Assembly: GCF_964213995.1 (NCBI RefSeq)
Contig: NW_027590501.1
Location: 62,001-126,000 of the forward strand
DNA: 64,000 nucleotides
From: Mustelus asterias
Taxonomy: Eukaryota
Reading direction: 5' to 3'
Notes under the pieces: model-generated
Told to the model about the DNA's origin: nothing
Databases searched by the model: none
Seen by the model: the letters and a program-made list of their open reading frames with translations, nothing else
Position numbers and translations under genes: made by a program
Shown here: positions 3,469 to 64,000 of the stretch, one piece after another
Numbering within the stretch: position 1 is the stretch's first letter
How the letters are laid out: every line of letters starts with the position of its first letter

Positions 3469-4563
3469 TCACTCGTGAACTCGCTGGTGTCTCAGCAGGT
3501 GGGATGAAACTCTGAATCCCTTCCCACACTGAGAGCAGGTGAATGGCCTCTCCCCAGTGTGAACTCGCTGGTGTCTCTGCAGGTGGGATGACTGAGTGAA
3601 TCCCTTCCCACACTGAGAGCAGGTGAACGGCCTCTCCCCTGTGTGAACTCGCTGGTGTGTCCGCAGATCAGATGAGTTAGTGAATCCCTTCCCACACTGA
3701 GAGCAGATGAATGGTTTCTCCCCAGTGTGAACTCGCTGGTGTATTCGCAGGCTGGATAACAGAATGAATCCCTTCCCACACTGAGAGCAGGTGAACGGCC
3801 TCTCCCTTGTGTGACGTAGCTGGTGTCTCTGCAGGTCGGCTGACTGAGTGAATCTCTTCCCACACTGAGAGCAGGTGAACGGTCTCTCCCCAGTGTGAAC
3901 TCGTTCGTGTGTCCGCAGGATGGATGAGTTCGTGAATCCCTTCCCACACTGAGAACAGTTGAATGGCCTCTCCCCAGTGTGAACTCGTTGGTGTCTCTGC
4001 AGGAGGGATAACAGAATGAATCCCTTCCCACACTGAGAGCAGGTGAACGGCCTCTCTCCTGTGTGAACTTGCTGGTGTTTCTGCAAGCTGGATAACTGAA
4101 TGAATCCCTTCCCACACTGAGAGCAGGTGAATGGTTTCTCCCCAGTGTGAACTCGCTGGTGTATCCGCAGGCTGGATAACAGAATGAATCCTTTCCCACA
4201 CTGAGAGCAGGTGAATGGCCTCTCCCCAGTGTGAACTCGTTCATGTGTCCGCAGGGTGGATAATTGAGTGAATCCCTTCCCACACTGAGAGCAGGTGAAC
4301 GGCCTCTCCCCAGTGTGAACTCGCTGGTGTCTCTGCAGGTCGGATAACTGACTGAATCCCTTCTCACATTGAGAGCAGGAAAATGGCCTCTCTCCAGTGT
4401 GAACTCGCTGGTGTCTCTGCAGGAGGGATAATCGAGTGAATCCCTTCCCACATTGAGAGCAGGTGAATGGTCTCTCCCCAGTGTGGCTGCGTCGATGAGC
4501 TTCCAGCTTAGATGGGGCTCTGTATCCCTTCCCACAGTCCCCACATTTCCATGGTTTCTCCAT
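3469..4563 (-). CDS. Z1: tandem C2H2 zinc-finger protein, 13 fingers, no effector domain
   Basis: 13 CxxC-x12-HxxxH units with TGE[RK]PF linkers. Likely ATG (MEKPWKC, accATGG) at 4563; the ORF track starts at a non-ATG codon at 4599. Confidence 0.9.
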
Positions 4564-5160
4564 GGTGCAGGTGTCCTTACCTCTCTCTTGACTGGACAAT
4601 TAGTTGAAACTTCGCCCACACTCAGAACAAGATTACAGTCTCTCCCCGCTGTGAATGGTGTGATATTTATTCAGACTGTGTAACTGGTTAAAGCTCTTTA
4701 GTCAGTGCATTGGAACACTCTCACTCAAGTGTGGCAGTGTGTTGATGCTTTTTCACTCACACTGACATTTCAAATCTTTTCAAATCGACAGACTGGACAA
4801 TCATTTCTCCTTCTGGATTCAAAGTCCGATGATATTGAGGTCCCAAGGAATATGACTCTGTCACGTCTAGACATGACGTTTGAGATTTCGGCCTGTGATT
4901 CCTCTTTCAATATCCTGTAAAACGAGTTTACAAAAGTCATCAGTGTCAGTACAGCAGAGAAATTCAGAACAGACAATTTCTATGGAACATTCTTGCCTCT
5001 CTCATTCCCCAAAAGCTGTAAATCTCCATCCCACACACTGTCTCCCCATTCTCAGCAGGTCTGGCAGCATCTGTATGGAGAGAAAAGAACTGATGTTTCA
5101 GAGCTTTGACAAAGGGTCATCGAGACAAGAAACATCAGCTCTTGATGTAGGAAGAGAGAT

Positions 5161-5471
5161 TCCTATTCGCTGATTCAGGCAGGCTCCATTGTGACGTCAC
5201 AATGCGGAAGTTGTCCAATGAGCTTCAGATTGAAACTTCCTCTTCTGGACAACATCTGGGAGGAAATCAATGTTTCCCCCTTTCCATTTCTTTTCTCATT
5301 CTGGGGAAATTGGGGACTTGCAGCAACTGAAGGGAGTGAAGTGAATTCGGTCTGTATATTCCACACATTTTTACTCCAGTAATGTAGACATTTATTTGTC
5401 TGGCAGCCTGCATGGAAATTTTCAGCTCTCTGCATCCAGGGCAAGAAGCAGTGAGCATGGATCTGTCAATC
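5161..5471 (+). promoter_or_regulatory. ZNF-type promoter/exon1/exon2 remnant in opposite orientation to Z1
   Basis: 5161-5240 matches the reverse complement of 51570-51650. 5220-5340 matches 34434-34560. 5350-5471 matches 35670-35788. Contains the palindrome cattgtgacgtcacaatg. Confidence 0.7.
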
Positions 5472-5842
5472 ACACATGAGGACGGCCTCAACCGGGATCT
5501 TGGGTTCATGTCACACTATCTGTAACTCACACTGTCTGTAACCCCCACAAATTGCCTGGGCTTGCAAAATCTCACTAACTGTCCTGGCTGGAGACAATAC
5601 ACATCTCTTTAACCTGTGCTTCATCCTCTCTCCACTCACATTGTCTGTACCTTTAAGACTTGATTACCTGTAAAGACTCACATTCCAACCATTATTTTGT
5701 AAATTGAGTTTGTGTCTCTGTGCCCTGTTTGTGAACAGAACTCCCACTCACCTGATGAAGAGCAGCGCTCCAAAATCCTGTGGCTTATGCCAGCAAATTA
5801 ACCTGTTGGATTTTAACCTGGTGTTGTGAGATTACTTACTGT
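5471..5842 (+). mobile_element. Penelope-like element 3' fragment (end of GIY-YIG ORF plus terminal repeat)
   Basis: Homologous to 44838-45197 (THEDGLNRDxGFMSHYL*; aataaacctgttggactttaacctggtgttgt-type terminus). Degenerate hammerhead core at about 5752. Confidence 0.8.
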
Positions 5843-5979
5843 CTGAGGCTGAAACAGGCTGTTCACAACCAGGGTGAAATAGTTCATCCCAATATGAGCT
5901 TCCAACCACGTCCACATCATCATCAAGACCACCTTCATTCAAAGTAATTAATTAATTAACAGTAATGAATCATAAAATA

Positions 5980-6273
5980 CATTGTAGGAGGAGGCCATTC
6001 AGCCCATCGAGCCTGCACCGACAACAATCCCATCCAGGCCCTATCCACATATTTACCTGTTAATCCCCCTGATGCCAAGGGTTAATTTATCATGGCCAAT
6101 CTGTCTAACCTGCACATCTTTGGACTGTGGAAGGAAACCGGAACACCCGGAGGAAACCCACCCAGACACGGGGAGAATGTAGAAACTCTGCACAGACAGC
6201 GACCCGAGGCTGGAATTGAACCCGGGTCCCTGGCGCTGTTAGGCAGCTGCACTAACCACTGCGCCACCGGGCC
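5980..6273 (-). mobile_element. HE1/V-SINE-like tRNA-derived SINE
   Basis: Reverse complement reads ggtggcgcagtggttag (A box) ...ggttcaattcc (B box), the core gggtttcctccgggtg and a CR1-like tail. Confidence 0.85.
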
Positions 6274-6325
6274 ACATGTCAGTGCCATCGCCCGACTCCA
6301 GCCCAGTGTCAGCTCATCTGGAACC

Positions 6326-6489
6326 CTCACCCATTCCATTGTGACATCACACTCTCACCCATTCCATTGTGACGTCACACTCTCACCCATTCCATTGTGA
6401 CATCACACTCTCACCCATTCCATTGTGACCTCACACTCCCACCCATTCCATTGTGACCTCACACTCTCACCCATTCCATTGTGACGTCA
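6326..6489. repeat. 28-bp minisatellite, about 6 copies, each with a CRE-like gtgacNtcac
   Basis: Unit ctcacccattccattgtgac[a/g/c]tcacact at 28-bp spacing. Confidence 0.95.
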
Positions 6490-7090
6490 GGGCTTCACTC
6501 TCCGATCACAATCCCTGCCGGCCTCCCACATGCAGCCTCAATGGCGGCAGTCAGCCCGGGTCTAACACTACAAGCTGCCGCTCCATTTGGTACAAAGGGG
6601 GGGAACCGGGAAGTTCATTTCCGGGGTTTGGGGTTGAACAACATGTTTACAAAGTCTCTCCACCCACCCGCCACATTTATCATTCCTCGCACGCCGCCCT
6701 CTACCTCGTATTGATCTCGCTACCGAGTTAAAACCGTCCATCCGTCGTCATTACCCGCACTGCGCATGCTACAGGCCCCGCCTCTCATTCACTCCGATTG
6801 GTTGGAGGACCAGCCGCTCCCGCTCGGTCCTCCAGTCCGGCCCCCTCTTCCTATTGGTCCGGAGCTGCCGTCAATCAGTGCCCGGGCATTGTGATGTGGA
6901 GCATGCGCAGTGTCATTGCTGTCCTTGCGCTTGTTTGTCCCGGAGAAGCGGAGTCAGCGTTAGGCGGTGGCTGGGAGGATTTGGAAACACTTTGTGGATC
7001 CGCAAACCCTTCAGAATCATTGTCAGCTCCCTGGTTTGCAGCTGCGGGGCTTTTCCCTCCCTCCCTCCCGGGAACAGGCCCAGGTTAACG
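6490..7090 (+). promoter_or_regulatory. CpG-island promoter and putative non-coding exon 1 of Z2
   Basis: CpG-rich. Contains tgcgcatg (NRF1-like), inverted CCAAT boxes, a GC box and YY1-like atggcggc. Candidate donor cag|gttaac at 7083/7084 and acceptor tttacag|g at 7541/7542. Confidence 0.65.
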
Positions 7091-7899
7091 GCCCCATCCT
7101 GGCTCAGCCACTGGAGGATGGTTCACATCAGAGGATGGGGGAGGGGGACAATAAATAAGAGGTTACACTTTGGCCTCAAATCAATGAGGACTCTGATCTC
7201 TGGGAAGGAAGGAAACCCTGGGAGGTGGGCGGGGAGGATTAACAAACACCCGCTGGAGGCCCCAACACCCCCAATAAGACCCATTGGTTTTATTGTCAGT
7301 CTGCAGACAGGAGCTGGAGAACTGAACCCAGACAGAGGAGAGGGAGGGAGAAAACTGGGAGTGGAGGAAAGAAATGGTGAGATGGGTTTGGATTTCAGCG
7401 CAGGGAGGAGGGAGAGTGTGTGGGACGGAGATTTACAGATTTGGGGGAACAAGAAAGGAAAAAATGTTCCAGAAAGACTAGAATTGTTCAGAGTTTCTAT
7501 CCTGTTCTGACAGTGATGACTTTTCTAAACTGTTTTTACAGGATATTCAAAGTGAAGGAATGGCAGACAGAAAACTCAAACCGAACATCACATCTGACAA
7601 AGTCATTCAGTTCCTTCGGAGCTGAATATGATCGGTCTTTGAATATGGAAGGAGCAATATTTGTCTGTTCTGCCTGTGGGCAAAGAAATTAAACATCAGT
7701 GTGACCAGAAAAGCAGCAGGACAAACACACACCCGAGTGAGAGTGTTCCAGTGAACCAACTGTGGAAAGAGCTTTAACCAGTTACACAGCCTGAAAAAAA
7801 ATCACAGTTCACAGCAGGGTGAAACTACGTGTATGTTGTGTGTGTGGATGAGGCTTGAACTGATCATCCAACCTGGAGAAACACAAGGGCACCAGCACC

Positions 7900-9048
7900 A
7901 TGGAGAAACAGTGGAAATGTGTGGATTGTGGGAAAGGAATCAGTTTCCCATCACAACTGGAAGTTCATCAGCGCAGTCACACTGGGGAGAGACCGTTCAC
8001 CTGCTCTGTTTGTGGGAAGGGATTCACCCATTCATACAACCTTCTGACTCACCAACGGGTTCACACTGGGGAGAGGCCGTTCACCTGCCCTGTGTGTGGG
8101 AAGGGATTCACTCGCTCATCCCACATTGTGACACACCAACTTGTTCACACTGATGAGAGACTGTCTCCATGTTCTGACTGTGGGAAGAGTTTTAAATGCA
8201 AAAAAGATCTGCTGACGCACCAACGTATTCACACTGGGGAGAGACCGTTCACCTGCTGTGTGTGTGGGAAAGGATTCATTCAGTCATCCCACTTGCAGAC
8301 ACATCAACTTGTTCACTCTGATAACAAACTTTTTAATTGTTCCCACTGTGAGAAGAGCTTTAAAAATAAAAAAGATCTGCTGACGCACCAATATACTCAC
8401 ACTGGGGAGAGGCCATTCACCTGCTGTGTGTGTGGGAAGGGATTCAGCCATCCATCTGCCCTATTGAACCACCAGAGAATTCACACTAGGGAGAGGCCCT
8501 TCACCTGCTCAGACTGTGGGAAGGGATTCATTAATTCATCCAACCTTCTGATACACCAGCAACTCCACACAGGGGATCGACCGTTCACCTGCTCTGAATG
8601 TGGGAAGGGATTCACCCGTTCATACAACCTTCTGACACAGCAGCAGGTTCACAGTGAGGAGAGGCCATTCACTTGCTCCGTATGTGGGAAGGGATTCACT
8701 CGTTCATCCAACCTATTGAATCACCAGCGAGTTCACACTGGGGAGAGGCCGTTCACCTGCTCCATGTGTGGGAAGGGATTCAGTCAGTCATCCAACCTGC
8801 TGACACATCAGAGAGTTCACAGTGGGGAGAGGCCATTTACCTGCTCTGTCTGTGGGAAGGGATTTTCTCATTTCTCTTATCTTCTGAAACACCAGCGAGT
8901 TCACACTGGGGAGAGGCCGTTCACCTGTAATGTCTGTGGAAAGGGATTTGTTCAGTCATCCCACCTGCTAACACACCGGCGAGTTCACAAACGACTGCAA
9001 GGTTTGGATTCTACACTTATCGATGCTGTTAATCATATCCAGGTCTGA
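7900..9048 (+). CDS. Z2: tandem C2H2 zinc-finger protein, 13 fingers (9th has His>Gln)
   Basis: 382-aa ORF starting accATGG (MEKQWKC) with canonical linkers and a short C-terminal extension. Confidence 0.92.
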
Positions 9049-12569: not shown

Positions 12570-12980
12570 CCGTCACAATGCCCGGCTGATTGACGGCAGC
12601 GTGGACCAATGGGAAGAGGGGGCAGAGCTGGAGGCCCGATCAGGAGCGGTTGGTCCTCCAACCATTAGGAGCAAACGAGGGGCGGGGCCAACTTTGACTC
12701 GAGCATGCGCAGTGTGAGTAAAGGCGATGGAAAACGGTTATTTTGGGCTCGGAAATCTGTTCGAGGTGATTGGCGGTACGGAGAGAGCAATGGATCGTCC
12801 AGGTGGGTGGAAGCGCTGCGTAACCATGTTGTGAGAGTCGCAAAATGCGGAAGAGAGCTTCCCGGACCCAGTTTGCACCGAGCGGGGCTGCAGCTCCTCA
12901 TGTTCGTTTCGGGTTAACGTTCGCCATCTTTATTGGGGGCAATATGCAGCAGTGCGCACGTGTGGCCGCCATGTTTGTAG
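12570..12980. promoter_or_regulatory. CpG-island promoter upstream of Z3
   Basis: Reverse-oriented copy of the 6783-6900 cassette (gattgacggcagc...ccaat...ggtcctccaacc), plus gcatgcgca, YY1-like cgccatctt and gccgccatgtt, and donor-like gg|gttaac. Confidence 0.65.
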
Positions 12981-13692: not shown

Positions 13693-14442
13693 TTGATCAC
13701 CCACGTTGGCAGCAAGTTCAATATCATCATCAGTCACAACCCCCCTGTATCTTCACTAACTGAAACAATCCATTTAAAACATTTTTATCGAGAATGTAGC
13801 CATATTTCTTTTGGACTGGCAGCCTGCATGGAGACTTTCAGCTCTCTGTGTCCAGGACAGGAAACCGTGAGCATGGATCTGTCAATCAGCCTCAATCAGC
13901 ATCTTCAGGAGAATTGGGAGGGTGAATATTAGATACAGCAGAGTGAGAATGGAGGGAGAGTGTGTGGGATGGAGATTCACAGCTTTTGGGGAATGAGAGA
14001 GGAAAGAATGTTCCATGGAAACTAGAATTGTCTGTTCTGAATTTCTATCCTGTACTGACTGTGATGAATTTTGTAAATTGTTTTTACAGGATATTAGAAG
14101 AGGAATCACACTGATAAATCTCAACTATCACATCTCGATCTGACAGAGTCACTCGATTCCTTGGATACTAAATATCCTCAGCCTCTGAATGGGAAGGAGA
14201 AATGTTTGACCGGTCTGTCCACTGCAAGATTTTAAGCAACAGTGTGACTGGAAAAACACCGGGACACAAACACACACCTGAGTGAGAGTGTTCCAGTGCA
14301 CTGACAGTGGAAAGAGCTTTAACCAGTTACACAGCCTGAAAATACATTGCAGCATTCACAGCAAGGAGAGACTGTACACGTGTTCTCTGTGTGGACAAGG
14401 CTTCAAATGATTGACCTGCAATGATACAAGGAGACCGACAAT

Positions 14443-15369
14443 ATGGAAAAACCGTGGAAATGTGAGGACTGTGGGAAGAGATACAAAGCGCCCTCTCTAC
14501 TGGAAGCTCATCGGCGCAGCCACACTGGGGAGAGGCCGTTCACCTGCTGGGTGTGTGGGAAGGGATTCACTGATTCATCCACTCTGCAGAGACACCAGCA
14601 AGTTCACACTGGTGAGAGTGCATTCACCTGCTGTCAGTGTGGGAAGGGATTTACTCAGATATCAAGCCTGCGGACACACCAGCGAGTTCACACTGGGGAG
14701 AGGCCATTCACCTGCTCTCAGTGTGGGAAGGGATTCACTGAGTCATCCAACCTACAGAGACACCAGCGTGTTCACACAGGAGAGAGGCCATTCAGCTGCT
14801 CTGCATGTGGGAAAAGATTCACTCAGTTATCTCAACTGCGGGCACACCAGCGAGTTCACACTGGGGAGAGACCGTTCACCTGCTCTCAGTGTGGGAAGGG
14901 ATTCACCCAGTTATCCAACCTGCAGACACACCAGCGAGATCACACTGGGGAGAGGCCATACAGCTGCTTTCAGTGTGGGAAGGGATTCATTCATTTATCA
15001 AACCTGCAGACACACCAGCAAGTTCACACCGGGGAGAGGCCATTTACCTGCGCCGTGTGTGGGAAGGGATTCACTCGGTTATCCACCCTGCAGTCACACC
15101 AGCGAGTTCACACTGGGGAGAGGCCATTCACCTGCTCTCAGTGTGGAAAGGGATTCACTCAGTTATCTAATCTGCGGAGACACCAGTGAGTTCACTCTCA
15201 AGAGAGGTCGTTCACCTGCCCCGTGTGTGGGAAGGGATTCACTCGGTTATCCACCCTGCAATCACACCAGCGAGTTCACACCGAGGAGAGACCATTCACC
15301 TGCTCTCAGTGTGGGAAGGAGTTCTGTGATTCATCCACCCTGCTGACACACCAACAAGTTCACAAGTGA
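14443..15369 (+). CDS. Z3: C2H2 zinc-finger gene, 8 intact fingers then premature TGA (15187-15189); ancestral array of 11 fingers ends 15369
   Basis: ORF MEKPWKC...RRHQ*. The frame continues past the stop through two more fingers to cac aag tga. Confidence 0.85.
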
Positions 15370-21580: not shown

Positions 21581-23166
21581 TCACTTGTGAACTCACTGGT
21601 GTTTCACCAAGTTTGCTGACTGAGTGAATCCCTTCCCAGTCAGAGCAGGTGACCAGCCTCTGCCTGGTGTGAACTCACTGGTGGGACATTAGTTCCCGAG
21701 AGCTTTTGAAGCTACGCCCACATTTAAAGGGTCTCTCCTGGGTGTGATGATGTTGTGTCTGGGCAGGCTGGATAAGTGAGTAAATCCTTTCGCACACACC
21801 GAGCAGGTGAATGGTTTCTCCCCGGTGTGAACTCACTGGTGTTTCAGCAGTGTTGATGATATTCTAAACCTCCTTGAACAGTGAGAGCAGCTGAACGGCC
21901 TCTCCCCGGTGTGAATGTGCTCGGGGATCATCAGTTCCTGAGAGCTTTTGAAGCCGGCTTCTCGGGCAGAGCATTTAAAGGGTCTCTCCTTGGAGTGAGT
22001 GGCTTTGTGTTTCTGCAGGCTGGATGACTGAGTGAATCCCTTCCCACACACAGAGCAGGTGAACGGTCTTTCCCCAGTGTGAACTCGCTGATGTTCCCAC
22101 AGGCTGGATGACATTTTAAATCTCTTTGTGCAGTGAGAGCAGCTGAACGGTCTCTCCTCAGTGTGAATGCGCTGGTGGGACACCAGGTCCTGAGAGCTTT
22201 TGAATCCGCTCCCACAGTCAGAGCATTTAAACCGTCTCTCATTAGTGTGAGTGACTTTGTGTCTGCGCAGGTGGGATGAAGTAGTGAATCCCTTCCCACA
22301 CACCGAGCAGGTGAACGGTCTCTCCCCAGTGTGAACTCGCCGGTGCACTCGCAGGTTGGATGATGTTCTAAACCTCTTTGTGCAGTGAGAGCAGCTGAAC
22401 GGTCTATCCTCAGTGTGAGTGCGCTGGTGGGACATCAGATCCTGAGAGTCTTTGAAGCCACTCCCACAGTCAGAGCATTTAAATGGTCTCTCATTGGTGT
22501 GAGTTGTTTTGTGTTTCTGCAAGCTGGATGAAGTTGTGAATCCCTTCCCACACACACAGCAGGTGACGGCCTTTCCCCGGTGTGAACTCGCTGGTGTGTC
22601 TGCAGGTTGGATGATGTTCTAAACCTCTTTGTGCAGTGAGAGCAGCTGAACGGTCTCTCCTCAGTGTGAATGCGCTGGTGGTCCCTAAGTACCTGAGAGC
22701 TTTTGAATCTGCTCCCACAGTCAGAGCATTTAAATGGTCTCTCATTGGTGTGAGTGGCTTTGTGTTTCTGCAGGCTGGATGACTGAATGAATCCCTTCCC
22801 ACACACAGAGCAGGTGAATGGTCTCTCCCCAGTGTGAACTCGCTGGTGTATCTGCAGGTTGGATGAAGTTCTAAATGTCTTTGAGCAGTGAGAGCAGCTG
22901 AACGGTCTCTCCTCAGTGTGAATGCGCTGGTGGGACATCAGATACTGAGAGCTTTTAAAACCACTCCCACAGTCACAGCATTTAAATGGTCTCTCATTGG
23001 TGTGAGTGAGATTGTGTTTCTGCAGGCTGGAAAACTGAGTGAATCCCTTCCCACACACAGAGCAGGTGAATGGCCTCTCCCCAGTGTGACTGCGTTTATG
23101 AATTTCCAGCTCAGATGGGAACCCGAATCTCTTCCCACAGTCCCCACATTTGCACGGTTTCTCCAT
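21581..23166 (-). pseudogene. Z4: long C2H2 array; 7 intact fingers, 1-bp frameshift at about 22566, further fingers, then degenerate tail with TGA stops
   Basis: ORFs 22435-23202 and 21833-22555 join at aggccgtcacc versus consensus aggccgttcacc. ATG (MEKPCKC) at 23166; ancestral stop at 21581-21583. May still encode a 7-finger protein. Confidence 0.8.
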
Positions 23167-23619
23167 GGTGCGGGTGTCCTTGTGACTCTCCAGGTTAAAC
23201 AATCAGTTAAATCTCACACAGAACACGGGTACAGTCTCTCCCCGCTGTGAATGCTGCGATGCATTTTCAGGCTGTGTAACTGGCTCTTTCCACACTCAGT
23301 GCACTGGAACACTCTCAGTCGGGTGTGTGTGTCTCAATGCATTTCTAGTCACAGCGATGTTTACAATCTTTTGAACCCAATAGGCCAAACAAACATTTCT
23401 CCTGCTAGATTCAAAGGTCGATGATATTTAGGTCCCAAGAAATCGAGTCACTCTGTCAGATCTCGATGTGATGTTGGAGATTTCTGTATGATTTCTCCTT
23501 GTCTAATATCCTGTAAGTCAATTTAGAAAAAAACATCGCAATTCAGAATACGATCGAAATTCAAATCTACATTTCTAGTTTATGGAGCATTCATTAAAAA
23601 CACAGTCATGGAGCATTAA

Positions 23620-26833: not shown

Positions 26834-27047
26834 CCATGTAATTCTTTGTAAACTGATTTTGCAGGAAATTGAAGGGAAGGATTTGCAGTCTGGATGATCG
26901 AATCTCACGTCTGACAGAGTCAATCGGTTCATCGGGATCTGAAAATTTGTGCATCTGAAGGGATTTAATTGACCATCTCAGCAGGAAGCTGGTGAGAATC
27001 CGTTCATCTGCTCCTCCTGTGGGGAGGGATTGATACAGCTGGAAAAC

Positions 27048-28589
27048 ATGCTGACACGACAGCGAGCTCACAACAGTGAGAGTTCATTCACCTGCTCCGT
27101 GTGTGGGAAGAAATTCATGTGTTCGTCCAACCTGCTGGCTCACCAACTCGATCACATTGATGAGAAGCCTCTTCAAAGCTCTGATTCTGGGGACAGTGTC
27201 GAGACCTCTGAGGAACAGGCCCAACACCAGCGAGTTCACACTGACAAGAGACCGTTCAGCTGCTCCCACTGCGGGAAGAGGTTCAGCCAGTCCTCCCGCC
27301 TTGCAGAGCACCAGCTCCTTCACACACACGAGAGACCGTTCAGCTGCTCTCACTGTGGGGAGTCGTTCAGCGACTCAGTGCATCTCACTGAGCATCAACA
27401 AGTTCACACCAAGGACAGGCCATTCAGCTGCTCCCAGTGTGGGAAGAGATTCACTCAGTCCTCCCACTGCACCGTTCACCAACTGGTTCATTCTCAGAAG
27501 AGACATTTTAAATGCTTTAAATGTGAGAAGACCTTCAAAAGAAGGATTAGTCTGCTGAGACACCAGGGCACTCACACCGGGGAGAGGCCGTACCCCTGTT
27601 CTGTTTGTGGGAAGAGATTCGCTCATTCATCTCATCTTCTGACACACAAGCGAGTTCACACTGGGGAGAGGCCTTTCCTCTGCTCCCTGTGTGGGAAGAG
27701 ATTCACTCGATTTTCACGCCTTTTGACACACAAGAGTATTCACACTGGAGGGAAACCATTCACCTCCTCAATGTGTAGAAAGGAAGAAGTTCAATCAACT
27801 GACCAGCTGACACACCAGCAAGTTCACACTGGGGAGAAGCTGTTCACCTGCTCGGTGTGTGGGAAGGAATTCACTCGGTCTCACTATCTTCTGAGGCACC
27901 GGCGAGTTCACACTGGGGAGAGGCCATTCCTCTGCTCCGTGTGTGGGAAGATGTTTCCTTGTTCATCCCAGCTTGTGATGCACGAGCGTGTTCACACAGG
28001 GGAGAGGCCTTACGCTTGCCCTGTGTGCGGGAAAGCATTTGCTTCTTCACAACACCTGCTGAAACATCGGCCTGTTCACACCGGGGAGAGGGCGTTCATC
28101 TGCTCCGAGTGTGGGAAGGCTTTCACCGAGTCATCCAGCCTCCGGACACACCGCCGCACTCACACCGGGGAGAAGCCATTCTCTTGCTCCATTTGTGGCA
28201 AGAGATTCACTCAGTCGTCTGGCCTGCTGAGACACCAATACATTCACACAGGGGACAGGCCGTTCACCTGCTCTGTGTGTGGGAAGGGATTCACTGATCC
28301 ATCCCGCCTGCAGACACACCAGCGAGTTCACACCGGGGAGAAGCCGTTCACCTGCTCTGTGTGTGGGAAGGGATACACTCAGGTATCCAGCCTGCAGAGA
28401 CACCAGCGAGTTCACACTGCGACAGAACCGTTCACCTGCTCCCTGTGTGGGAAGGGATTCACTGATCCATCCCGCCTGCAGAGACACCAGCGAGTTCACA
28501 CTGGGGCAAAACCTTTCAACTGCTCCATGTGTGGGAAGGGATTTAATCAGTATTACAGCCTGCTGAAACATAGACGACTTCATGTGTGA
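27048..28589 (+). CDS. Z5: divergent C2H2 zinc-finger protein, 16 intact plus 2 degenerate fingers
   Basis: 519-aa ORF; first ATG at 27048; candidate acceptor ttttgcag|g at about 26864. Start uncertain. Confidence 0.88.
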   Translation: MLTRQRAHNSESSFTCSVCGKKFMCSSNLLAHQLDHIDEKPLQSSDSGDSVETSEEQAQHQRVHTDKRPFSCSHCGKRFSQSSRLAEHQLLHTHERPFSCSHCGESFSDSVHLTEHQQVHTKDRPFSCSQCGKRFTQSSHCTVHQLVHSQKRHFKCFKCEKTFKRRISLLRHQGTHTGERPYPCSVCGKRFAHSSHLLTHKRVHTGERPFLCSLCGKRFTRFSRLLTHKSIHTGGKPFTSSMCRKEEVQSTDQLTHQQVHTGEKLFTCSVCGKEFTRSHYLLRHRRVHTGERPFLCSVCGKMFPCSSQLVMHERVHTGERPYACPVCGKAFASSQHLLKHRPVHTGERAFICSECGKAFTESSSLRTHRRTHTGEKPFSCSICGKRFTQSSGLLRHQYIHTGDRPFTCSVCGKGFTDPSRLQTHQRVHTGEKPFTCSVCGKGYTQVSSLQRHQRVHTATEPFTCSLCGKGFTDPSRLQRHQRVHTGAKPFNCSMCGKGFNQYYSLLKHRRLHV

Positions 28590-35640: not shown

Positions 35641-36333
35641 AGCACTGAAGGGAAAAGAAATGAATCCAATCTCTATATTCCACACATTTTTAGTCCAGTC
35701 ATATAGACAAAAATCTGTCTGGCCGCCTGCATGGAAATTTTCAGCTCTGTGTCCAGGACAGGAAGCAGTGAGCATGGATCTGTCAATCAGCCTCAAGCAG
35801 CACCTTCAGGAGAATTGGGAGGGTGAATATTAGATACAGCAGAGTGAGAATGGAGGAAGCGTGTGTGGGAGGGAGATTTGCAGTTGTTGGGGAATGAGAG
35901 AGGAAAGAATGTTCCAGAGAAACTAAAATTGTCTGTTCTGAATTTCGATCCTGTACTGACACTGATGACTTTCGTAAACTCCTTTTATAGGATATCAGAA
36001 GGTGACAATGTACAGACAGAAATCTGGAACCAAACGTAACATCAACATCTGACAGAGTCACTCAATTCATCGGGACCTGAATATATTCGACCTTTCAATC
36101 CAGAAGGAGAAATGTTTCTCTGTTCTGTCTGCTTCAGAAGACTTTAAACAAAGACTTTAAAAGCACCAAGACACTCACAAACCTGAATGAGAGTGTTCCA
36201 GTGCACTGTGTGTGGAAAGAGCTTTAACACTGCCTGAAAATACATCGCAACATTCACAGCGGGGAGAGACTGTACCCATGTTCTGTCTGAGATTTAGCTG
36301 TTTAACCTGGAGAGTCACAAGGACAACCGCACC

Positions 36334-37344
36334 ATGGGGAAACCGTGGAAATGTGGGGATTGTGGGAAGGGATTCAGGGTCCCATCTCTACTGGAAACTC
36401 ATCGACGCAGTCACACTGGGGAGAAACCGTTCACCTGCCCTCAGTGTGAGAAGGGATTCACTGACTCATCCGCCCTACGGACGCACCAGCGAATTCACAC
36501 TGGGGAGAAGCCGTTCACCTGCTCTGACTGTGGGAAGGGATTCACTCGGTTATCCAGCCTGCGTGCACACAATCTCACTCACACCAATGAGAAACCGTTT
36601 AAATGCTCTGACTGTGGGAGCAGATTCAAAAGTTCTGGAGAACTGGTGTCCCACCAGCGCATTCACACTGAGGAGAGACCATTCAGCTGCTCTCACTGCT
36701 CAAAGAGGTTTAAATGGTCATTCAGCCTGCAGATCCACCAGCGCATTCACACTGGGGAGAGACCACTCACCTGCTCTGTGTGTGAAAAGGGATTCACTCA
36801 GACATCCGCCTTGCTGCGACACCAGCGAGTTCACACTGGGGAGAGGCCATTCACCTGCACTGTGTGTGGGAAGGGATTCACTGGGTTAACATACCTGCGG
36901 ACACACCAGCAAGCTCACACTGGAGAGAGGCCGTTCACCTGCTCTCAGTGTGGGAAGGGATTCAGTGCATTATCCAGCCTGCAAAGACACAAGCGAGTTC
37001 ACACTGGGGACAAACCGTTCATCTGTTCTCAGTGTGGGAAGGGATTCACTCAGTTATCCCACTTGCGGACACATCAGCGAGTTCACACTGGGGCGAAACC
37101 GTTCACCTGCTCTCAGTGTGGGAAGGGATTCACTCAGTTATCCAGCCTGGAAACACACCAGCGAATTCACACTGGGGAGAGGCCATTCACGTGCTCTCAA
37201 TGTCAGAAGGGATTCACTGAATCATCCGACCTGCTGAGACACCAGCGAATTCACACTGGGGAGAGGCCGTTCACCTGCTCTGTGTGTGGGAAGGGATTCA
37301 GAGTTTCATCCGCCTTGCTGAGACACCAACAAGTTCATGAATGA
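36334..37344 (+). CDS. Z6: tandem C2H2 zinc-finger protein, 12 fingers
   Basis: 336-aa intact ORF starting accATGG (MGKPWKC). Confidence 0.92.
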
Positions 37345-42357: not shown

Positions 42358-43161
42358 GGACAGAATTATGACAGTGTGGTTATGTGTTAAATATTGGATG
42401 GTTCTATAATAAAGTACATTTATTATTATTTCTTGTCTTGTAATATAGTACTGTAGCTATGTTATATATTTCCAGTCAGAGCCATTATAGCACAGGGGGA
42501 GTCCATTGGACAATTCAAGGCCCTGCTGACTCTCTGTCGAGCAATTCTGTCAGTCTGGAGAGGGTCCCATTCTGTACTCCTGCAGCACCCATCCAATCTC
42601 ATTGAGAAATTACTGACCATCTCTGCTTGACTACCCTCACAGGCAGCAAGTTCAGGAGCATGACTAATCACAACCCCCATATCTTAACCAACTTACAGAT
42701 TTAGGGGAATGAGTGGGGAAAGAATGTTCTATAGAAACTAGAATTATCTGTTCTGAATTTTGATCCTGTAGTGACTGTGATGTCTGCTGCAAACTCCTTT
42801 TATAGGATATCAGAAGGTTAGGATCCATTGACAGAATCCCAAATCATGCGCCACGTCAAGATTTGACAGTCGCTCAATTCATCTGGACCTGAATACCATC
42901 GGCCTTTGCATCTAGAAGGAGAAATGTTTCTCTATTCTGTCTGCTTCAGAAGGCGTTAAATGTCAGTGTGACTGGAAAAGCACCAACGCACACACACACC
43001 TGAGTGAGAGTGTTCCAGTGCACTGACTGTGGAAAGAGCTTTAACCAGTTATATAGCCTGAAAATACATCACAGCTTTCACAGTGGGCAGAGACTGTACC
43101 CGTGTTCTGTGTGAGATTTAACTGATTGTTTAACCTGGAGAGTCACAAGGACACCCGAACC

Positions 43162-44004
43162 ATGGAGAAACCATGGAAATGTGGGGACTGTGGGAAGGGA
43201 TTCAGATTCCCATCTCGGCTGGAAATTCATCGACGTATTCACACTGAGGAGTGGCCATTCACCTGCTCTGTGTGTGGCATGGGATTCACTTATTTCTCCA
43301 AGCTGTTGAACCACAAAGTCACTCACACTAATGAGAGACCCTTTAAATGCTCCGACTGTGGGAGCAGCTTCAAAAGGGCGCAGGAACTGCTGAGACACGA
43401 GCGAATTCACACTGAGGAGAAACCATTCAGCTGCTCTCAATGCTCAAAGAGATTTAGATCAACATCCAACCTGCAGGAACACCAGCGAGTTCACACCAGT
43501 GAGAGACCCTTTAAATGCTCCGACTGTGGGAGTGAATTCAAAAGGTCTCAGGATCTGAGGGACCACCAGCACATTCACACCGAGGAGAGACCATTCAGCT
43601 GCTCTCACTGCACAAAGAGGTTTAGAACGTCATCCCACCTGCAGAGACACCAGCGAATTCACACTGGGGAGAAACCATTCACCTGCTCTGTGTGTGGGAA
43701 GGGATTCACTGATTCATTCAACCTGCGGGAACACCAGCGAACTCACATTGGGGAGAGGCCATTTATCTGCTGTGTGTGTGGAAAGGGATTCACCCGGGCA
43801 TCCAGCCTGCTGACACACCAGCGGGTTTACACCGGGGAGGGGCTGTTTACCTGCTCTCACTGTGGGAAGGGATTCACTCAGTTATCCAGACTGCAGGTAC
43901 ACGTTCGAGTTCACACTGGGGAGAGACCATTCACCTGCTCTGTATGTGGAAAGGGATTCACTCAGTCAACATTCCTGCAGAGACACCAGCGAGTTCACAA
44001 GTGA
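43162..44004 (+). CDS. Z7: tandem C2H2 zinc-finger protein, 10 fingers (8th His>Tyr)
   Basis: accATGG MEKPWKC at 43162; intact to cac aag tga. Confidence 0.9.
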
Positions 44005-50439: not shown

Positions 50440-51342
50440 TCAACAGGTGGGATAACTGAGTGAATTCCTTCCCACACTCAGAGCAGGTGAATGGTCTCTC
50501 CCCATGTGAATTCGCTGGTGTCTCTGCAGGTTGGATAACTGACTGAAACCCTTCCCACACTGAGAGCAGGTAAATGGCCTCTCCCCAGTGTGAACTCGCT
50601 GGTGTCTCCGCAGGTGGGATGACTGAGTGAATCTCTTCCCACACTGTGAGCAGGTGAACGGCCTCTCTCCAGTGTGAATGTGCTGGTGTTTCTGCTGGGT
50701 GGATAAGTGACTGAAACCCTTCCCACACTGAGAGCAGGTAAATGGCCTCTCCCCAGTGTGAACTCGCTGGTGTGTCCGCAGCTCGGATGACCGAGTGAAT
50801 CTCTTCCCACACTGAGAGCAGGTGAATGGCCTCTCCCCAGTGTGAACTCGCTGGTGTGTCCGCAGGTCGGATGAACGAGTAAATCCCTTCCCACACTGAG
50901 AGCAGGTGAATGGCCTCTCCCCGGTGTGAATGTGCTGATGTGTCCGCAGGTCGGATGACCGAGTGAATCTCTTCCCACAACGAGAGCAGATGAATGGCCT
51001 CTCCCCAGTGTGAACTCGCTGGTGTATCTGCAGGTTGGAAAACTGACTGAACCCCTTCCCACACCGAGAGCAGATAAACAGCCTCTCCCCAGTGTGAATT
51101 CGCTGGTGTCTCTGCAAAGTGGATAACACAGTGAATCCCTTTCCACACTGAGAGCAGGTGAACGGTCTCTCTCCGGTGTGAACTCGCTTGTGTGACTGCA
51201 GGCTGGGCAACAGAGCGAATCCCTCCCCACACTGAAAGCAGATGAATGGCCGCTCCCCAGTGTGGCTGCGCCGATGAGCATCCAGCAGAGAGGGGGCTCT
51301 GTATCTCTTTCCACAGTCCGCACATTTCCATGGTTTCTCCAT
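50440..51342 (-). CDS. Z8: C2H2 zinc-finger protein, 10 intact fingers then frameshift; two dead fingers to about 50339
   Basis: accATGG MEKPWKC at 51342. Frame shifts after HQRIH at about 50503. Confidence 0.85.
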
Positions 51343-51559
51343 GGTGCAGGTGTCCTTGCCTCTCCCTTGGGTGGCCAATCAGTTGAAGCCTTGTCCACAC
51401 ACGGAACACGGGTGCAGTCTCTCCCTGCTGTGAATGGTGTGATATTTATTCAGGCTGTGTAACTGGTTAAAGCTCTTTAGTCCGTGCTCTGGAACAATCT
51501 CACTCGGGTGTGGCAGTGTGTTGCTGCTTTTCCACTCACTGATGGCCGAAGTCTTTTCA

Positions 51560-51890
51560 AATCCAAGTGGAAGCTTTAATCTGAAGCTCAGTGGCCAACT
51601 TCCGCATTGAGACGTCACAATGGAGCGCTGCCGGAATCAGCCAATAGGAATTACTCGGCTCCGCAGTGACGTTGCGGGGTTCCATGGCGCAGGCCCGGCT
51701 CGCGGACCCGGGAGCCCCACCCATTGTTCCTCCTCCCCCTGCACCTCCTCCAGCCAAGGTTTCCAGGCAACCGGCTGGCGGCTCCGGCCAGAGCGAGAAG
51801 CCGCTCGGTGATCTCCCCCTCCCCCCTCTCTCTCCGGCGGCTGCTGCTCCAAAAAGAGATCGAGAGCGGACCGCTGGCGGCAGCCGCACT
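51560..51890. promoter_or_regulatory. Bidirectional CpG island between Z8 (-) and Z9 (+)
   Basis: Very CpG-rich, with CCAAT, CRE-like gacgtca and ETS-like cttccg. Confidence 0.7.
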
Positions 51891-52088
51891 GCGCCTGCTC
51901 CGGACAGCTGGGCTCAGCAGCGCTCTCTGCGCCTGCTCCGGACAGCTCGGCTCAGCAGCGCTCTCTGCGCCTGCTCCGGACAGCTGGGCTCAGCAGCGCT
52001 CTCTGCGCCTGCTCCGGACAGCTCGGCTCAGCCGCGCTCTCTGCGCCTGCTCCGGACAGCTCGGCTCAGCAGCACTCTCTGCGCCTGC
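51889..52088. repeat. 38-bp GC-rich minisatellite, about 5.3 copies
   Basis: Unit ctgcgcctgctccggacagct[g/c]ggctcagcagcgctct starting at 51889, 51927, 51965, 52003, 52041 and 52079. Confidence 0.95.
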
Positions 52089-53040: not shown

Positions 53041-54079
53041 ATATGGTGCATAATGGGTATGTTATTTATGGATTTGTATTACAGTTGATTTTGTTTAATT
53101 CCAGAATAGTATTGTAACTACACTGTATATTTTCCAGTCAAAGAGTCATCAGAGCACAAGATAAATCAATTCAGCAGCTTGAGTCCGTGCCCAGTCTCTG
53201 TCGGGGAATCCACTCAGTGCCATTTTTCCTCGATATCCCTGTTCCCCAGCACGTTTAATTCCTTCAAGTGCCCGACCAATTTTATTTTGAAATCACTGGT
53301 CGTCTCCACTTCCACCACTCTCATCATCAGTGAGTTCCAGAACATGATTGCTTGCTCCCTAAGTCAAGTTCTTCCGCACCCATCTGTATCTCTAATCATG
53401 TAATAGAGTTCTGAATATTGCATACATTTTTAGTCCACTAAATATGCTAATTTTTTATCTGCTTAGACACAAGCCTGTGTGAAGATTTCAGGAATATGTG
53501 TCCTGTACATGAAACAGTCAGCACGGATCTGTCGATTAGGATGAATCAGCACCCTCAGGACAATGTCTATTTCAGGTCCAGCAAAGTGAGAATGGAGGGA
53601 GAGTGTTTGGGATGGAGATTTACAAATTTTCAAGAATGAGAGGAAAGAATGTTCCACAGAAACTAGAATTGTCTGTTCTCAGTTTTTATCCTGTACTGAC
53701 AGCAATGATTTTTGTGAATTTCTTTCACAGGCTATTAGAAGGGGAGAATTTTCAGACACAAATCTCAACAAACATGACGTTAGGATCTGACAGAGTCACC
53801 CAATTATTCAGGATCTGAATACCATCGGCATTTGAAACGAGAATGGAAAATGTTTGTCTGTCCCTTCAAACTGTTTAAACATCAGTGTGACTGGAAAATC
53901 ACTGAGACACATCCACTCGAGTGAGAGTATTCCAGTGAACTGACTGTGGAAAGAGCTTTAACCAGTTACACAGCCTGGAAAAGATTGAAGGATTCACAGT
54001 GAGGAGAAAGACCATGTATGTGTTATCTGTGGGGTCAAATCTTCATCTGAACCTGGAGATGTACAAAGACACTCAGACC

Positions 54080-55125
54080 ATGGAAATGTAGGGACTGTGG
54101 GAAGGGATTCAATTGTCCCTCGAAGCTGGAAACCCTTCGATGCAGCCACACTGTGGAGACACCGTTCACCTGCTCTGAGTTTGGAAGGGGATTTCGTGAT
54201 TCATCCACCCTGAGGAATCACCAGCGACTTCACATCAGGGAGAGGCCATTCACCTGCTCTGAGTGTGGGAAGAAATTCAGCGATTCGTCTGCCCTGCTGA
54301 CACACCAGCGGGTTCACAACGGGGAGAGACCATTCACCTGTTGTGTGTGTGGAAAGGGATTCACTCAGTCATCTACCCTGCAGAATCACCAGCGATTTCA
54401 CACGGGTGAGGGACTGTCCCCCTGCTCAGAGCGTGGGAAGGGATTCACTCACTCATCCCTCCCGCTGACACACCAACCCATTCACACTGGGCCGAGGCCA
54501 TTCATCTGCTCCGAGTGTGGGAAGGGATTCACTCACTCATCCCTCCCGCTGACACACCAACGCATTCACACTGGGCCGAGGCCATTCATCTGCTCCGAGT
54601 GTGGGAAGGGATTCACTCAATTATCTAGTCTGCTGAGACACAAACGATTACATACTGGGGAAAGGCCATTCATCTGATGTGTGTGTGGGAAGTGACTCAG
54701 TCAATCATCCAGTCTGCTGGAATACTGAGGCTCCTCCCCCAATAAGAAACCTGTTCAATGCTCTGACTGTGGGAGCTGCTTTAAAACCTGAGCCTACCTG
54801 AGGGTCGACCAGCGCATTCACACTGAGGAGACCCCGTTCAGGCGCTCTCACTGTGCAAAGAGGTTTAGAACATCATCTGACCTACTGAAACATCAGGGAA
54901 TTCACACTGGGGAGAGACCCTGATAATTCCCACTCACTTTCAGCGATTTCTCATAAAACCTACCAGATTGGAAGCTTCTGCCTGAAATTTTATTTTCCCT
55001 TAGTTTCCAAACTGAGACCATTCACCTGCTCAGTGTGTGGGAAAGGATTCACTTGTTCACCCAAGCTGCTGAGGCACCATGGCAGTCACACCCATTAGTG
55101 ACCTTTTGGATGCTCTGACTGTGGC
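54080..55125 (+). pseudogene. Z9: C2H2 zinc-finger pseudogene
   Basis: Start collapsed (accatggaaatgtag). ORF 54153-54677 has damaged fingers, followed by several stops and frameshifts. Confidence 0.85.
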
Positions 55126-62829: not shown

Positions 62830-63588
62830 TCACTCGTGAACTTGCTGGTGTCTCAGCAGCTCGGATGAAACTCTGAAACGCTTTCCACACTGAGAGCAGG
62901 TGAATGGCCTCTCCCCTGTGTGAACTCGCTGGTGTGTCTGCAGGTCAGATGAGTTCGTAAATCCCTTCCCACACTGAGAGCAGATGAATGGTCTCTCCCC
63001 AGTATGAACTCGCTGGTGTATCTGCAGGTGGGATGACCGAATGAATCCCTTCCCACACTGAGAGCAGGTGAACGGCCTCTCTCCTGTGTGACGTAGCTGG
63101 TGTCTCTGCAGGTCGGCTGACTGAGTGAATTCTTGCCCACACTGAGAGCAGATGAACGGTCTTTCCCCAATGTGAACCCGTTCGTGCGTCCGCAGGTTGG
63201 ATGAGTTCATGAATCCCTTCCCACACTGAGAACAGGTGAATGGTCTCTCCCCAGTGTGAACTCGTTGGTGTCTCTGCAGGCTGAATGACCGAGTGAATCC
63301 CTCTCCACACTGAGAGCAGGTGAACGGCCTCTCCCCAGTGTGAACTCGCTGGTGTGACTGCAGGTTGGATAACCGAGTGAATCCCTCCCCACACTGCGAG
63401 CAGGTGAATGGCCTCTCCCCTGTGTGACGTAGCTGGTGTGATTGCAGGTTGGATACCCGAGTGAATCCCTTCCCACACTGAGAGCAGATGAACGGCCTCT
63501 CCCCAGTGTGGCTGCGCCGATGATCTTCCAGCAGGGATGGGTATCTGTATCCCTTCCCACAGTCCACACATTTCCATGGTTTCTCCAT
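62830..63588 (-). CDS. Z10: tandem C2H2 zinc-finger protein, 9 fingers; close paralog of Z1
   Basis: accATGG MEKPWKC at 63588; intact ORF. Upstream 63645-64000 is nearly identical to 4620-4975. Confidence 0.9.
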
Positions 63589-64000
63589 GGTGCAGGTGTC
63601 CTTACCTCTCTCTTGAGTGAACAATTCATTGAAACTTCGTCCACACACAGAACAAGATTACAGTCTCTACCCGCTGTGAATGGTGTGATATTTATTCAGA
63701 CTGTGTAACTGGTTAAAGCTCTTTAGTCAGTGCATTGGAACACACTCACTCAAGTGTGGCAGTGTGTTGATGCTTTTTCACTCACACTGACATTTCAAAT
63801 CTTTTCAAATCGACAGACTGGACAATCATTTCTCCTTCTGGATTCAAAGTTCGATGGTATTGAGGTCCCAAGGAATATGACTCTGTCAGATCTAGACGTG
63901 AAGTTTGAGATTTCAGCCTGTGATTCCTCTTTCAATATCCTGTAAAATGAGTTTACAAAAGTCATCAGTGTCAGTACAGGATAGAAATTCAGAACAGACA

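What the first reader, a model, noticed from the sequence alone, without database searches (positions are those of the whole stretch)
7542..7905. Start codon made from a zinc-finger linker, behind a shared leader of fossil fingers
Seen: eight loci (Z1-Z4, Z6-Z8, Z10) begin M[EG]K[PQ]xKC, usually after (H)K[DG]T[RCS]T and mostly as accATGG. This sits exactly where an HTGEKP linker would, so the linker Gly codon appears to have become a strong Kozak ATG. Upstream, about 350 nt after a shared tttt[a/t]ag|gatat acceptor reads as broken coding sequence: an acidic stretch, FVCSxC...TSV*LEKH, RVFQCTDCGKSFNQLHSLK, then CSVCG.GFN*. Two stops recur across paralogs (gtgTGA, and aacTGA in frame 13 codons before the ATG, e.g. 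7861), plus private frameshifts. The block gagtgagagtgttccagtg...agagctttaaccagttacacagcctg is still recognisable in nine loci (e.g. 7736, 14280, 43002, 53920; rc 4670, 23265, 51450, 63697). Inference: the ancestor lost its N-terminus, including any effector exon, before the expansion, re-initiated inside the array, and turned three fingers into a 5'-UTR that may now act as a cis element.
Basis: partly seen in the sequence, partly recalled or inferred. Interest (0 to 1): 0.8.

Follow-up and report, generated by a model that had tools for sequence, protein, structure and literature searches.

The report
Shark zinc-finger genes restarted mid-array
Hundreds of shark-type zinc-finger genes have an ATG where intact relatives have the glycine of a finger-to-finger linker, so they likely make bare DNA-binding arrays, and part of the three dead fingers left in front changes at about half the pace of its flanks, as if it may have taken on a regulatory job.

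Summary
Real. Eight window loci have an ATG at linker position 2, behind an acidic spacer and three dead fingers; 498 exact matches around that ATG occur genome-wide. Two intact paralogs elsewhere in the genome read through the whole leader, with Trp at the first stop and Gly at the Met. A sister subfamily reads HKCSHTGEKPWKC in horn shark. The leader is not protein-constrained (dN/dS 0.65-0.97, random frame, decayed zinc ligands; first coding finger 0.26), so recoding is rejected. Protein models of three other sharks end exactly at one or other stop, so the stops are old. Correction: no effector exon is seen even in the intact paralog, whose likely first exon is about 13 codons. The cis-element idea gains support: fossil finger 2 changes at about half the rate of the adjacent intron and finger 1, without codon periodicity or conserved RNA structure. 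A roughly 100-nt block further upstream is nearly invariant (1,133 exact matches). Gene conversion is not excluded, and initiation is untested. This scan noted the family before, in this genome and in others.

The parts
7534..7541 (+). Splice-acceptor-like site (TTTTACAG) of the last exon, phase 2 relative to the ancestral frame
   Evidence: Sequence; same position and phase in both intact paralogs; use in RNA not shown
7542..7659 (+). Fossil acidic spacer, about 40 codons; drifts at about the rate of the adjacent intron
   Evidence: Homologous to the open spacer of intact paralog L102; dN/dS 0.77, rate 1.24 against intron 1.27
7660..7734 (+). Fossil finger F1 with the shared TGA at 7702-7704 (TGG, Trp, in both intact paralogs)
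   Evidence: TGA in 46 of 53 lineages; records P0132, P0138 and P0145 end at this stop
7735..7827 (+). F1-F2 linker and fossil finger F2; slow-evolving core at about 7735-7793, a candidate cis element
   Evidence: Non-CpG p-distance 0.14 against 0.24-0.26 for F1, spacer and intron; rate 0.59; distance to ancestral state 0.10 against 0.19 for F1
7828..7899 (+). Fossil finger F3: stop at 7861-7863, last zinc ligand lost, ACC context before the ATG
   Evidence: Stop in 49 of 53 lineages and in 48 of 53 genome pattern matches; Carcharodon model P0133 ends at this stop
7900..7902 (+). ATG at linker position 2 (Gly in the intact paralogs); likely start codon
   Evidence: ATG in 48 of 53 lineages and in 96 of the first 100 listed of 498 genome matches
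7900..9048 (+). Main ORF, 382 aa, zinc fingers only (12 by pattern, 13 Pfam PF00096 stretches)
7307..7376 (+). Candidate small upstream exon, clade B type, inside a block nearly invariant within that clade
   Evidence: exon status inferred from AG and GT ends only
6775..7080 (+). CpG-rich promoter-like region with CCAAT boxes, shared with the 23166 locus at 94% identity
   Evidence: promoter function inferred
13856..13921 (+). Candidate 66-nt exon, clade A type, ahead of the 14443 locus; part of a near-invariant block of about 100 nt that holds an out-of-frame ATG
35757..35822 (+). Same clade A block ahead of the 36334 locus
3469..4914 (-). Paralog: leader plus ORF, ATG at 4563
14090..15189 (+). 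Paralog: leader plus ORF, ATG at 14443
22435..23510 (-). Paralog: leader plus ORF, ATG at 23166
35991..37344 (+). Paralog: leader plus ORF, ATG at 36334
42806..44004 (+). Paralog: leader plus ORF, ATG at 43162
50440..51563 (-). Paralog with a promoter-like sequence fused at F1 (no acceptor, no spacer), ATG at 51342
53728..54677 (+). Paralog that lost the ATG by deletion; likely pseudogene
62830..63939 (-). Paralog: leader plus ORF, ATG at 63588; F3 stop absent

Best explanation
This is one large shark C2H2 zinc-finger subfamily whose founder took stop codons in its first and third fingers and gained an ATG at the linker glycine before finger four, so its members likely translate effector-less finger arrays from that ATG, behind a fossil leader that is no longer read as protein. 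Shown: homology of the leader to two intact paralogs, Gly and Trp as the ancestral states, loss of protein-level selection in the leader, purifying selection on the zinc ligands of the first coding finger with variable DNA-contact positions, and the same stops in three other sharks. Inferred: the ancestor was a short-first-exon gene with no effector domain; ribosomes reach the ATG by leaky scanning or re-initiation past about three short upstream ORFs; fossil F2 (more weakly F3) and an upstream 100-nt block are held by selection as DNA- or RNA-level control elements; the proteins bind varied DNA targets, probably repeats, by analogy with other tandem ZNF expansions.
For: Intact paralogs G000:C1:169139898-169141049(-) and G000:C857:4340-4714(+) read through the leader without stops: TSVW/TLVW at stop 1, HAGEPLYQC/DTGEQPYKC at the ATG. 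Horn shark models read HKCSHTGEKPWKC and HKCSHTGEKLWKC (P0144, P0134). Tree: the ATG group (98/91), the sister group (98/93) and the intact pair (98/85) are each one side of a branch. In 53 lineages, dN/dS is 0.77, 0.97, 0.78 and 0.65 for spacer, F1, F2 and F3 (all intervals include 1) against 0.26 [0.15-0.43] for F4. Structural versus contact pN is 0.25/0.25 in F1 and 0.05/0.44 in F4. Leader length modulo 3 splits 22/15/16, and all 53 have at least 2 stops in the main frame. The ATG codon shows 3 changes on the tree, against medians of 8-14 for leader codons. 26 of 40 ATG loci in the window and tiled genome stretches keep 5 or more fingers. Models from Pristiophorus and Heterodontus end at FQTSV-stop, and one from Carcharodon at GFN-stop. 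F2 and F3 rates are 0.59 and 0.68 against 1.27 (intron), 1.24 (spacer) and 1.03 (F1); in the 31 lineages from window and tiles they are 0.62 and 0.76 against 1.00, 1.29 and 1.14.
Against: No direct evidence of initiation at the ATG or of transcript structure. 50 of 53 leaders hold upstream ATGs (mean 2.9), and 16 have an out-of-frame uORF overlapping the main ATG. 14 of 40 ATG loci have fewer than 5 fingers, and 4 of 8 non-ATG loci still have long arrays. The sister subfamily has GGG at the site in only 2 of 65 matches, so the immediate precursor codon is unknown. Among 13 recent-duplicate pairs, F2 (0.0115) and F3 (0.0105) are below the distal intron (0.021) but no lower than the proximal intron (0.006-0.014), and older pairs are mosaics. 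The 13-codon first exon of the intact paralog is inferred from sequence alone, and the second intact paralog's upstream region is simple repeat up to the contig end.
Confidence: 0.8

Rival explanations
1. The leader is an inert fossil. The slow stretches (F2, F3, upstream block) come from gene conversion or unequal crossover among paralogs, or from a local mutation cold spot, not from selection.
For: Paralog pairs are mosaic: in 11 older pairs the distal intron (0.066) is closer than the leader (0.14). The upstream block differs between the two clades yet is nearly invariant within each, and its divergence does not track leader divergence (rho -0.04, 25 rows). No conserved RNA structure (consensus energy 0; mean z +0.95 for F2+F3 in 30 of 53 rows) and no Rfam match near a gathering score.
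Against: F2 is also closer to the ancestral state fixed by both intact paralogs (0.10 against 0.19 for F1), which ongoing conversion alone should not produce (that expectation is my inference). The slowdown holds for all four bases outside CpG and recurs in both clades. Adjacent third positions of F4 are fast (1.5-1.6).
Confidence: 0.45
2. The conserved TGA codons are recoded (readthrough, selenocysteine or editing), so the leader fingers are translated as part of a longer protein.
For: Both stops are highly retained: 6 and 5 changes on the tree, against finger medians of 13.5 and 8. Many in-frame copies carry only TGA stops.
Against: Frame is random (22/15/16), extra TAA stops occur, the F3 stop is TAA in 15 of 53 genome matches, zinc ligands decay as fast as other sites, and dN/dS is near 1. 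Stop 1 is TGG in the intact paralogs.
Confidence: 0.02
3. Met was an internal residue of an atypical linker in the intact ancestor and was merely adopted as the start after upstream stops arose; no new ATG was made from Gly.
For: The neighbouring linkers are atypical (TQVKV, IGEKL). The end of F3 changed at 8 sites on the family's stem, so the order of events is unresolved.
Against: Both intact paralogs and the horn shark sister genes have Gly; no open-leader gene with Met at this site was found among the 150 and 142 matches listed in two genome searches. The order (ATG before or after the stops) stays open.
Confidence: 0.1
4. The true protein has an unrecognised N-terminal effector exon spliced past the fossil fingers, as in KRAB- or FiNZ-type genes.
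For: A near-invariant 66-nt exon candidate is open in the ancestral frame and has matching phase. A short novel domain would escape Pfam.
Against: The block's conservation runs on into the intron (+1..+30 is the most invariant part, 0.014), it is absent or different in clade B, three copies have 10-nt deletions, and no strong acceptor lies between the F3 stop and the ATG (acceptor strength judged by eye). No Pfam hit at cut-off in 112 upstream frames.
Confidence: 0.07

Closest known systems
Lineage-specific tandem C2H2 ZNF expansions, e.g. cyprinid FiNZ-ZNFs (PMC10547256; passages read)
   Same: Hundreds of clustered paralogs, tandem PF00096 arrays, variable DNA-contact residues with conserved zinc ligands.
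   Different: FiNZ-ZNFs keep a conserved 28-aa N-terminal domain; here the predicted protein starts inside a linker with no accessory domain. The words 'chondrichthy', 'cartilaginous', 'Scyliorhinus' and 'skate' do not occur in that paper's main text; its supplements were not read and may count shark ZNF ORFs. TE repression is untested here.
KRAB zinc-finger genes of tetrapods (PF01352)
   Same: Cluster organisation and a last exon made of spacer plus finger array (recalled).
   Different: No KRAB match in the ORF, the intact paralogs' fronts or upstream frames. PMC8455134 (passages) reports KRAB enriched among families lost in cartilaginous fishes.
Sister shark subfamily starting M-E-G-K-S (my label, recalled from shark annotations; records P0142, P0134, P0144)
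   Same: Same ancestral exon, same F4; in this genome it mostly has a stop or frameshift in the spacer ahead of an internal Met.
   Different: It deleted F1-F2, keeps F3 coding and likely starts at a Met inside the spacer; 65 strict matches here.
N-terminally truncated proteoforms controlled by short ORFs, e.g. nTRIP6 (PMC11933307) and C/EBP-alpha p30 (PMC7115832); search listing and abstract start only
   Same: A downstream ATG is used behind short ORFs or an early stop.
   Different: Those are isoforms or mutations of single genes; here the truncation is fixed in the founder of a family of hundreds.

Membership tests
Tandem C2H2 (Kruppel-type) ZNF genes | Five or more tandem PF00096 fingers in one ORF | tested here: met
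   13 Pfam stretches in 7900-9045; all 8 ATG loci of the window have 7-13 fingers
Tandem C2H2 (Kruppel-type) ZNF genes | Zinc ligands conserved, contact positions variable | tested here: met
   F4 pN 0.053 structural against 0.439 contact, pS 0.405; no formal positive-selection model was run
Tandem C2H2 (Kruppel-type) ZNF genes | Expressed protein that binds DNA sequence-specifically | not testable with these tools
   No Ribo-seq, proteomics or binding data
KRAB-ZNF | KRAB domain (PF01352) on upstream exons | tested here: not met
   No hit in 42 frames upstream of the intact paralog or 70 frames upstream of four window genes; frames of 30 aa or more within 1.2-4.4 kb
SCAN-, BTB-, ZAD- or SET-ZNF | N-terminal SCAN, BTB, ZAD or SET domain | tested here: not met
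   Same scans; exons further upstream were not scanned
FiNZ-ZNF | 28-aa FiNZ domain, cyprinid-specific | not tested
   No FiNZ profile was run; the paper calls FZNFs unique to cyprinids
Stop-codon recoding (readthrough or selenoprotein) | Frame and residues conserved on both sides of the stop | tested here: not met
   Random frame, dN/dS near 1, TGA to TAA changes
Structured 5'-UTR RNA element | Conserved fold or Rfam match | tested here: not met
   Consensus fold energy 0 in four leader segments; best Rfam E 0.82, far below gathering
Conserved non-coding cis element | Slower than neutral, with no codon periodicity | tested here: inconclusive
   Met among 53 lineages but not resolved in recent duplicates; no cross-species orthologue test was possible

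The most novel reading that the evidence does not exclude
A dead zinc finger was exapted. After the founder re-started inside a linker, fossil finger 2 and a near-invariant 100-nt upstream block became shared control elements for a family of more than a thousand effector-less ZNF loci. Sharks reached the same solution more than once: a sister subfamily starts in the spacer, and one of its branches gained an ATG at the very same linker site.
Probability: 0.4. Interest if true: 0.7.

Novelty: new variant of a known kind. Interest (0 to 1): 0.48.

Why it matters
Large ZNF expansions are usually explained by a repressor domain riding on variable finger arrays. Here one of the largest expansions in a shark genome appears to carry no such domain, and its intact relative seems never to have had one. 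That raises a testable question: how do bare arrays act, by recruiting partners through fingers or by simply occupying DNA? The family also documents, with living intact outgroups in the same genome, a start codon arising inside a domain linker, and it offers about a thousand copies in which to test whether former coding sequence is kept as regulatory sequence. In practice it explains odd shark gene models that end at FQTSV or GFN.

Tried and rejected
Protein word searches for an open leader found no true orthologue: one search had no candidate, and searches returned only generic ZNFs at 52% identity or less. This is weak evidence, since finger arrays crowd the candidates. None of 7 exact sequences is in the collection. 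The ESM Atlas gave only generic C2H2 clusters. The pattern was mis-specified, so its zero count means nothing; one search replaced it. Two 'no stop' hits (C87, C172) were compensated frameshifts, not intact genes. No RNA holder is listed on record. Contigs of four runs guessed to be RNA gave only weak hints: one record stops aligning at 7538 with 115 nt left over, two records run across an acceptor unspliced, and no splice joint was among the rows shown. No second laying of reads was obtained, so exon structure and initiation stay open. Two metagenome scans found nothing. No homology was found between the intact paralog's promoter and family promoters. The clade A block has no nhmmer hit near either intact gene and only a weak alignment to the C1 intron (1 of 500 shuffles as high). 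Coding synonymous sites were rejected as a neutral yardstick: they run faster than the intron, probably from CpG and finger shuffling. Six literature searches listed no paper describing this family or its leader; the library lacks most subscription journals.

Full report
Observation. The window holds ten C2H2 loci. Eight have an ATG followed by E/G-K-P/Q-x-K-C, seven of them in an ACC-ATG-G context. Nine share a leader block (9 matches against 0.05 expected). Read in register, the leader is a phase-2 acceptor, an acidic spacer of about 41 codons and three fingers (F1-F3), and the Met falls at position 2 of the seven-residue linker before F4.

Family size. A DNA search of the own genome had 2,678 first-look candidates, of which 40 were scored. 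A 33-base pattern around the ATG matches 498 places; of the first 100 listed, 96 are ATG, 2 ATA, 1 ACG, 1 ACA and none Gly. At the F3 stop, 53 matches split into 33 TGA, 15 TAA, 2 TGG, 2 TCA and 1 CGA. These are matches, not gene counts: many are near-identical copies that may be segmental duplicates or uncollapsed haplotypes.

Ancestral state. Protein searches of the genome found two paralogs with an open leader: G000:C1:169139898-169141049(-) and G000:C857:4340-4714(+). Both have TGG at the F1 stop and a Gly codon (GGG, GGC) at the ATG. A search with the first 49 residues of the C1 exon returned 15 proteins, ten of which I looked up. Heterodontus models P0144 and P0134 read HKCSHTGEKPWKC and HKCSHTGEKLWKC. 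P0132 (Pristiophorus), P0138 (Heterodontus) and an unnamed record P0145 end at FQTSV, and P0133 (Carcharodon) ends at GFN, exactly at the two stops. These are predicted models, but they show both stops in other sharks; that Pristiophorus and the other two genera lie in different shark superorders is recalled, not from a call. One unnamed record (P0140) keeps TSVW, and a second unit in P0144 has Arg at the F3 stop, fitting CGA to TGA. A tree of 30 rows (18 of 53 family lineages, 10 sister genes, 2 intact genes) puts each group on one side of a supported branch; the root was set at the midpoint for drawing only. The sister subfamily lacks F1-F2 and has a Met in the spacer. At the linker site it has GGG in only 2 of 65 matches, mostly GAG or AGG, and ATG in 10. 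So Gly is ancestral, but the step just before ATG is not known.

No effector exon seen. About 1.8 kb upstream of the C1 acceptor lies a CpG-rich stretch with an ATG in good context and a phase-2 donor after 12 codons (MAESSELPRPLQ), matching the acceptor's phase. No Pfam family reached its cut-off in 42 stop-free frames over 4.4 kb there, or in 70 frames upstream of four window genes. This first exon is inferred. C857's upstream DNA is simple repeat to the contig end. Family promoters are of several types and show no homology to the C1 promoter.

The leader is dead as protein. From 149 full-length hits I kept 55 representatives at under 93% identity: 53 family lineages and the 2 intact genes. 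Truncated leaders and two hits at sequence edges, one of them the 63588 locus, were left out. Pairwise dN/dS is 0.77, 0.97, 0.78 and 0.65 for spacer, F1, F2 and F3, all intervals including 1, against 0.26 for F4; between the two intact genes F1 and F2 have pN 0.14-0.15 and pS 0.68-0.82. Zinc-ligand positions are no better kept than contact positions in F1-F3, unlike F4 (0.05 against 0.44). Leader length modulo 3 is 22/15/16, and every lineage has two or more stops in the main frame. Recoding is therefore rejected. The ATG is kept in 48 of 53 with 3 changes on the tree. 50 of 53 leaders have upstream ATGs (mean 2.9), and 16 have an out-of-frame uORF overlapping the main ATG, so translation would need leaky scanning or re-initiation (inference).

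Is any of it a cis element? Spacer and F1 change about as fast as the last 120 nt of the intron; F2 and F3 change at about half that rate (partition rates 1.24, 1.03, 1.27 against 0.59, 0.68). The gap holds for all four bases outside CpG and in the 31 lineages taken from the window and contiguous genome stretches. F2 is also closer to the state shared by both intact genes (0.10 against 0.19 for F1), which argues against conversion alone. F3 is not closer on that measure (0.30, or 0.14 without its stem changes). Against: in 13 recent-duplicate pairs F2 and F3 (0.011) are below the distal intron (0.021) but not below the proximal intron, and 11 older pairs are mosaics. No conserved RNA fold or Rfam family was found. 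Several members have a promoter or repeat joined at F1 or at the F1-F2 linker and keep F2-F3, but L044 and L061 break inside F2.

An upstream block. Following a lead from an earlier scan note, I found a block from about -240 to -140 relative to the acceptor in 28 of 52 upstream regions. In clade A it diverges 0.023 from consensus, against 0.123 for spacer plus F1 (25 rows). It contains a 66-nt exon candidate with AG and GT ends, open in the ancestral frame, plus an out-of-frame ATG; the 30 nt after the donor are the most invariant part. A 34-base pattern in it matches 1,133 places, the first 100 listed all on contigs C12, C23 and C71, 97 of them with the ATG. Clade B has a different block that is also nearly invariant (5 rows). 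Selection and conversion both fit; this is unexplained.

Comparison. The family works like other lineage-specific tandem ZNF expansions (PMC10547256, passages) but fails the KRAB, SCAN, BTB, ZAD and SET domain tests within the range scanned. PMC8455134 (passages) notes KRAB among families lost in cartilaginous fishes. Six searches listed no paper on this leader; supplements were not read. The scan itself noted the family three times before; these notes are not independent evidence.

Verdict. The feature is real, and its origin is now well supported by intact outgroups. The effector-loss clause is not supported, and the cis-element clause is about even odds. New variant of a known kind; interest 0.48.

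Noticed in passing
L195 and L201 (G000:C87:1462341, C89:845003); 10 of 65 matches: Sister-type genes that lost their spacer Met, gained a stop in F3 and have an ATG at the same linker position (CSHSMEKPWKC): a second origin of the linker ATG, or a crossover with the main family.
   Followed up: partly
window 13856-13950, 35757-35850, 5440-5500 (partial), about 53495-53590; clade B type at 7307-7400: Near-invariant upstream block with a candidate small exon and an out-of-frame ATG; 1,133 exact matches genome-wide; clade-specific sequence.
   Followed up: partly
window 51342-51900; L063, L064, L067, L070, L071; T71a and T23 tiles: Members in which a CCAAT-rich promoter-like sequence joins directly at F1 or at the F1-F2 linker, removing acceptor and spacer; possibly intronless genes.
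   Followed up: partly
window 26840-28589: A 16-finger gene with only weak homology to the family acceptor region and no fossil fingers or linker ATG.
   Followed up: no
window 5160-7080: Promoter-like region between the divergent 4563 and 7900 loci, with CCAAT and CRE-like motifs (labels recalled) and a 28-nt tandem repeat at about 6323-6489; similar modules recur at 12573, 23629 and 32114.
   Followed up: no
window 6638-7510 (+): A 290-codon stop-free frame across the promoter and intron; no Pfam hit, probably chance in GC-rich DNA.
   Followed up: partly
window 7070-7260: Contigs from two different organisms match this stretch at about 99% (X1, X7), far above the leader; role unknown.
   Followed up: no
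L052, L044 and T87 at 14852/14948: Tandem duplication of F4 in some members; in T87 the second copy starts with its own ATG (KMEKPWKC).
   Followed up: no
about 3 kb upstream of G000:C71:10385320 (tile T71b): An antisense stretch beside the promoter that looks like a processed ribosomal-protein S3 fragment (identity recalled from its reading, not tested).
   Followed up: no
L141 (G000:C1:169146586-169149477, -): A 964-codon open frame with endonuclease and reverse-transcriptase-like motifs (CR1-type LINE, label recalled) upstream of the intact paralog.
   Followed up: no
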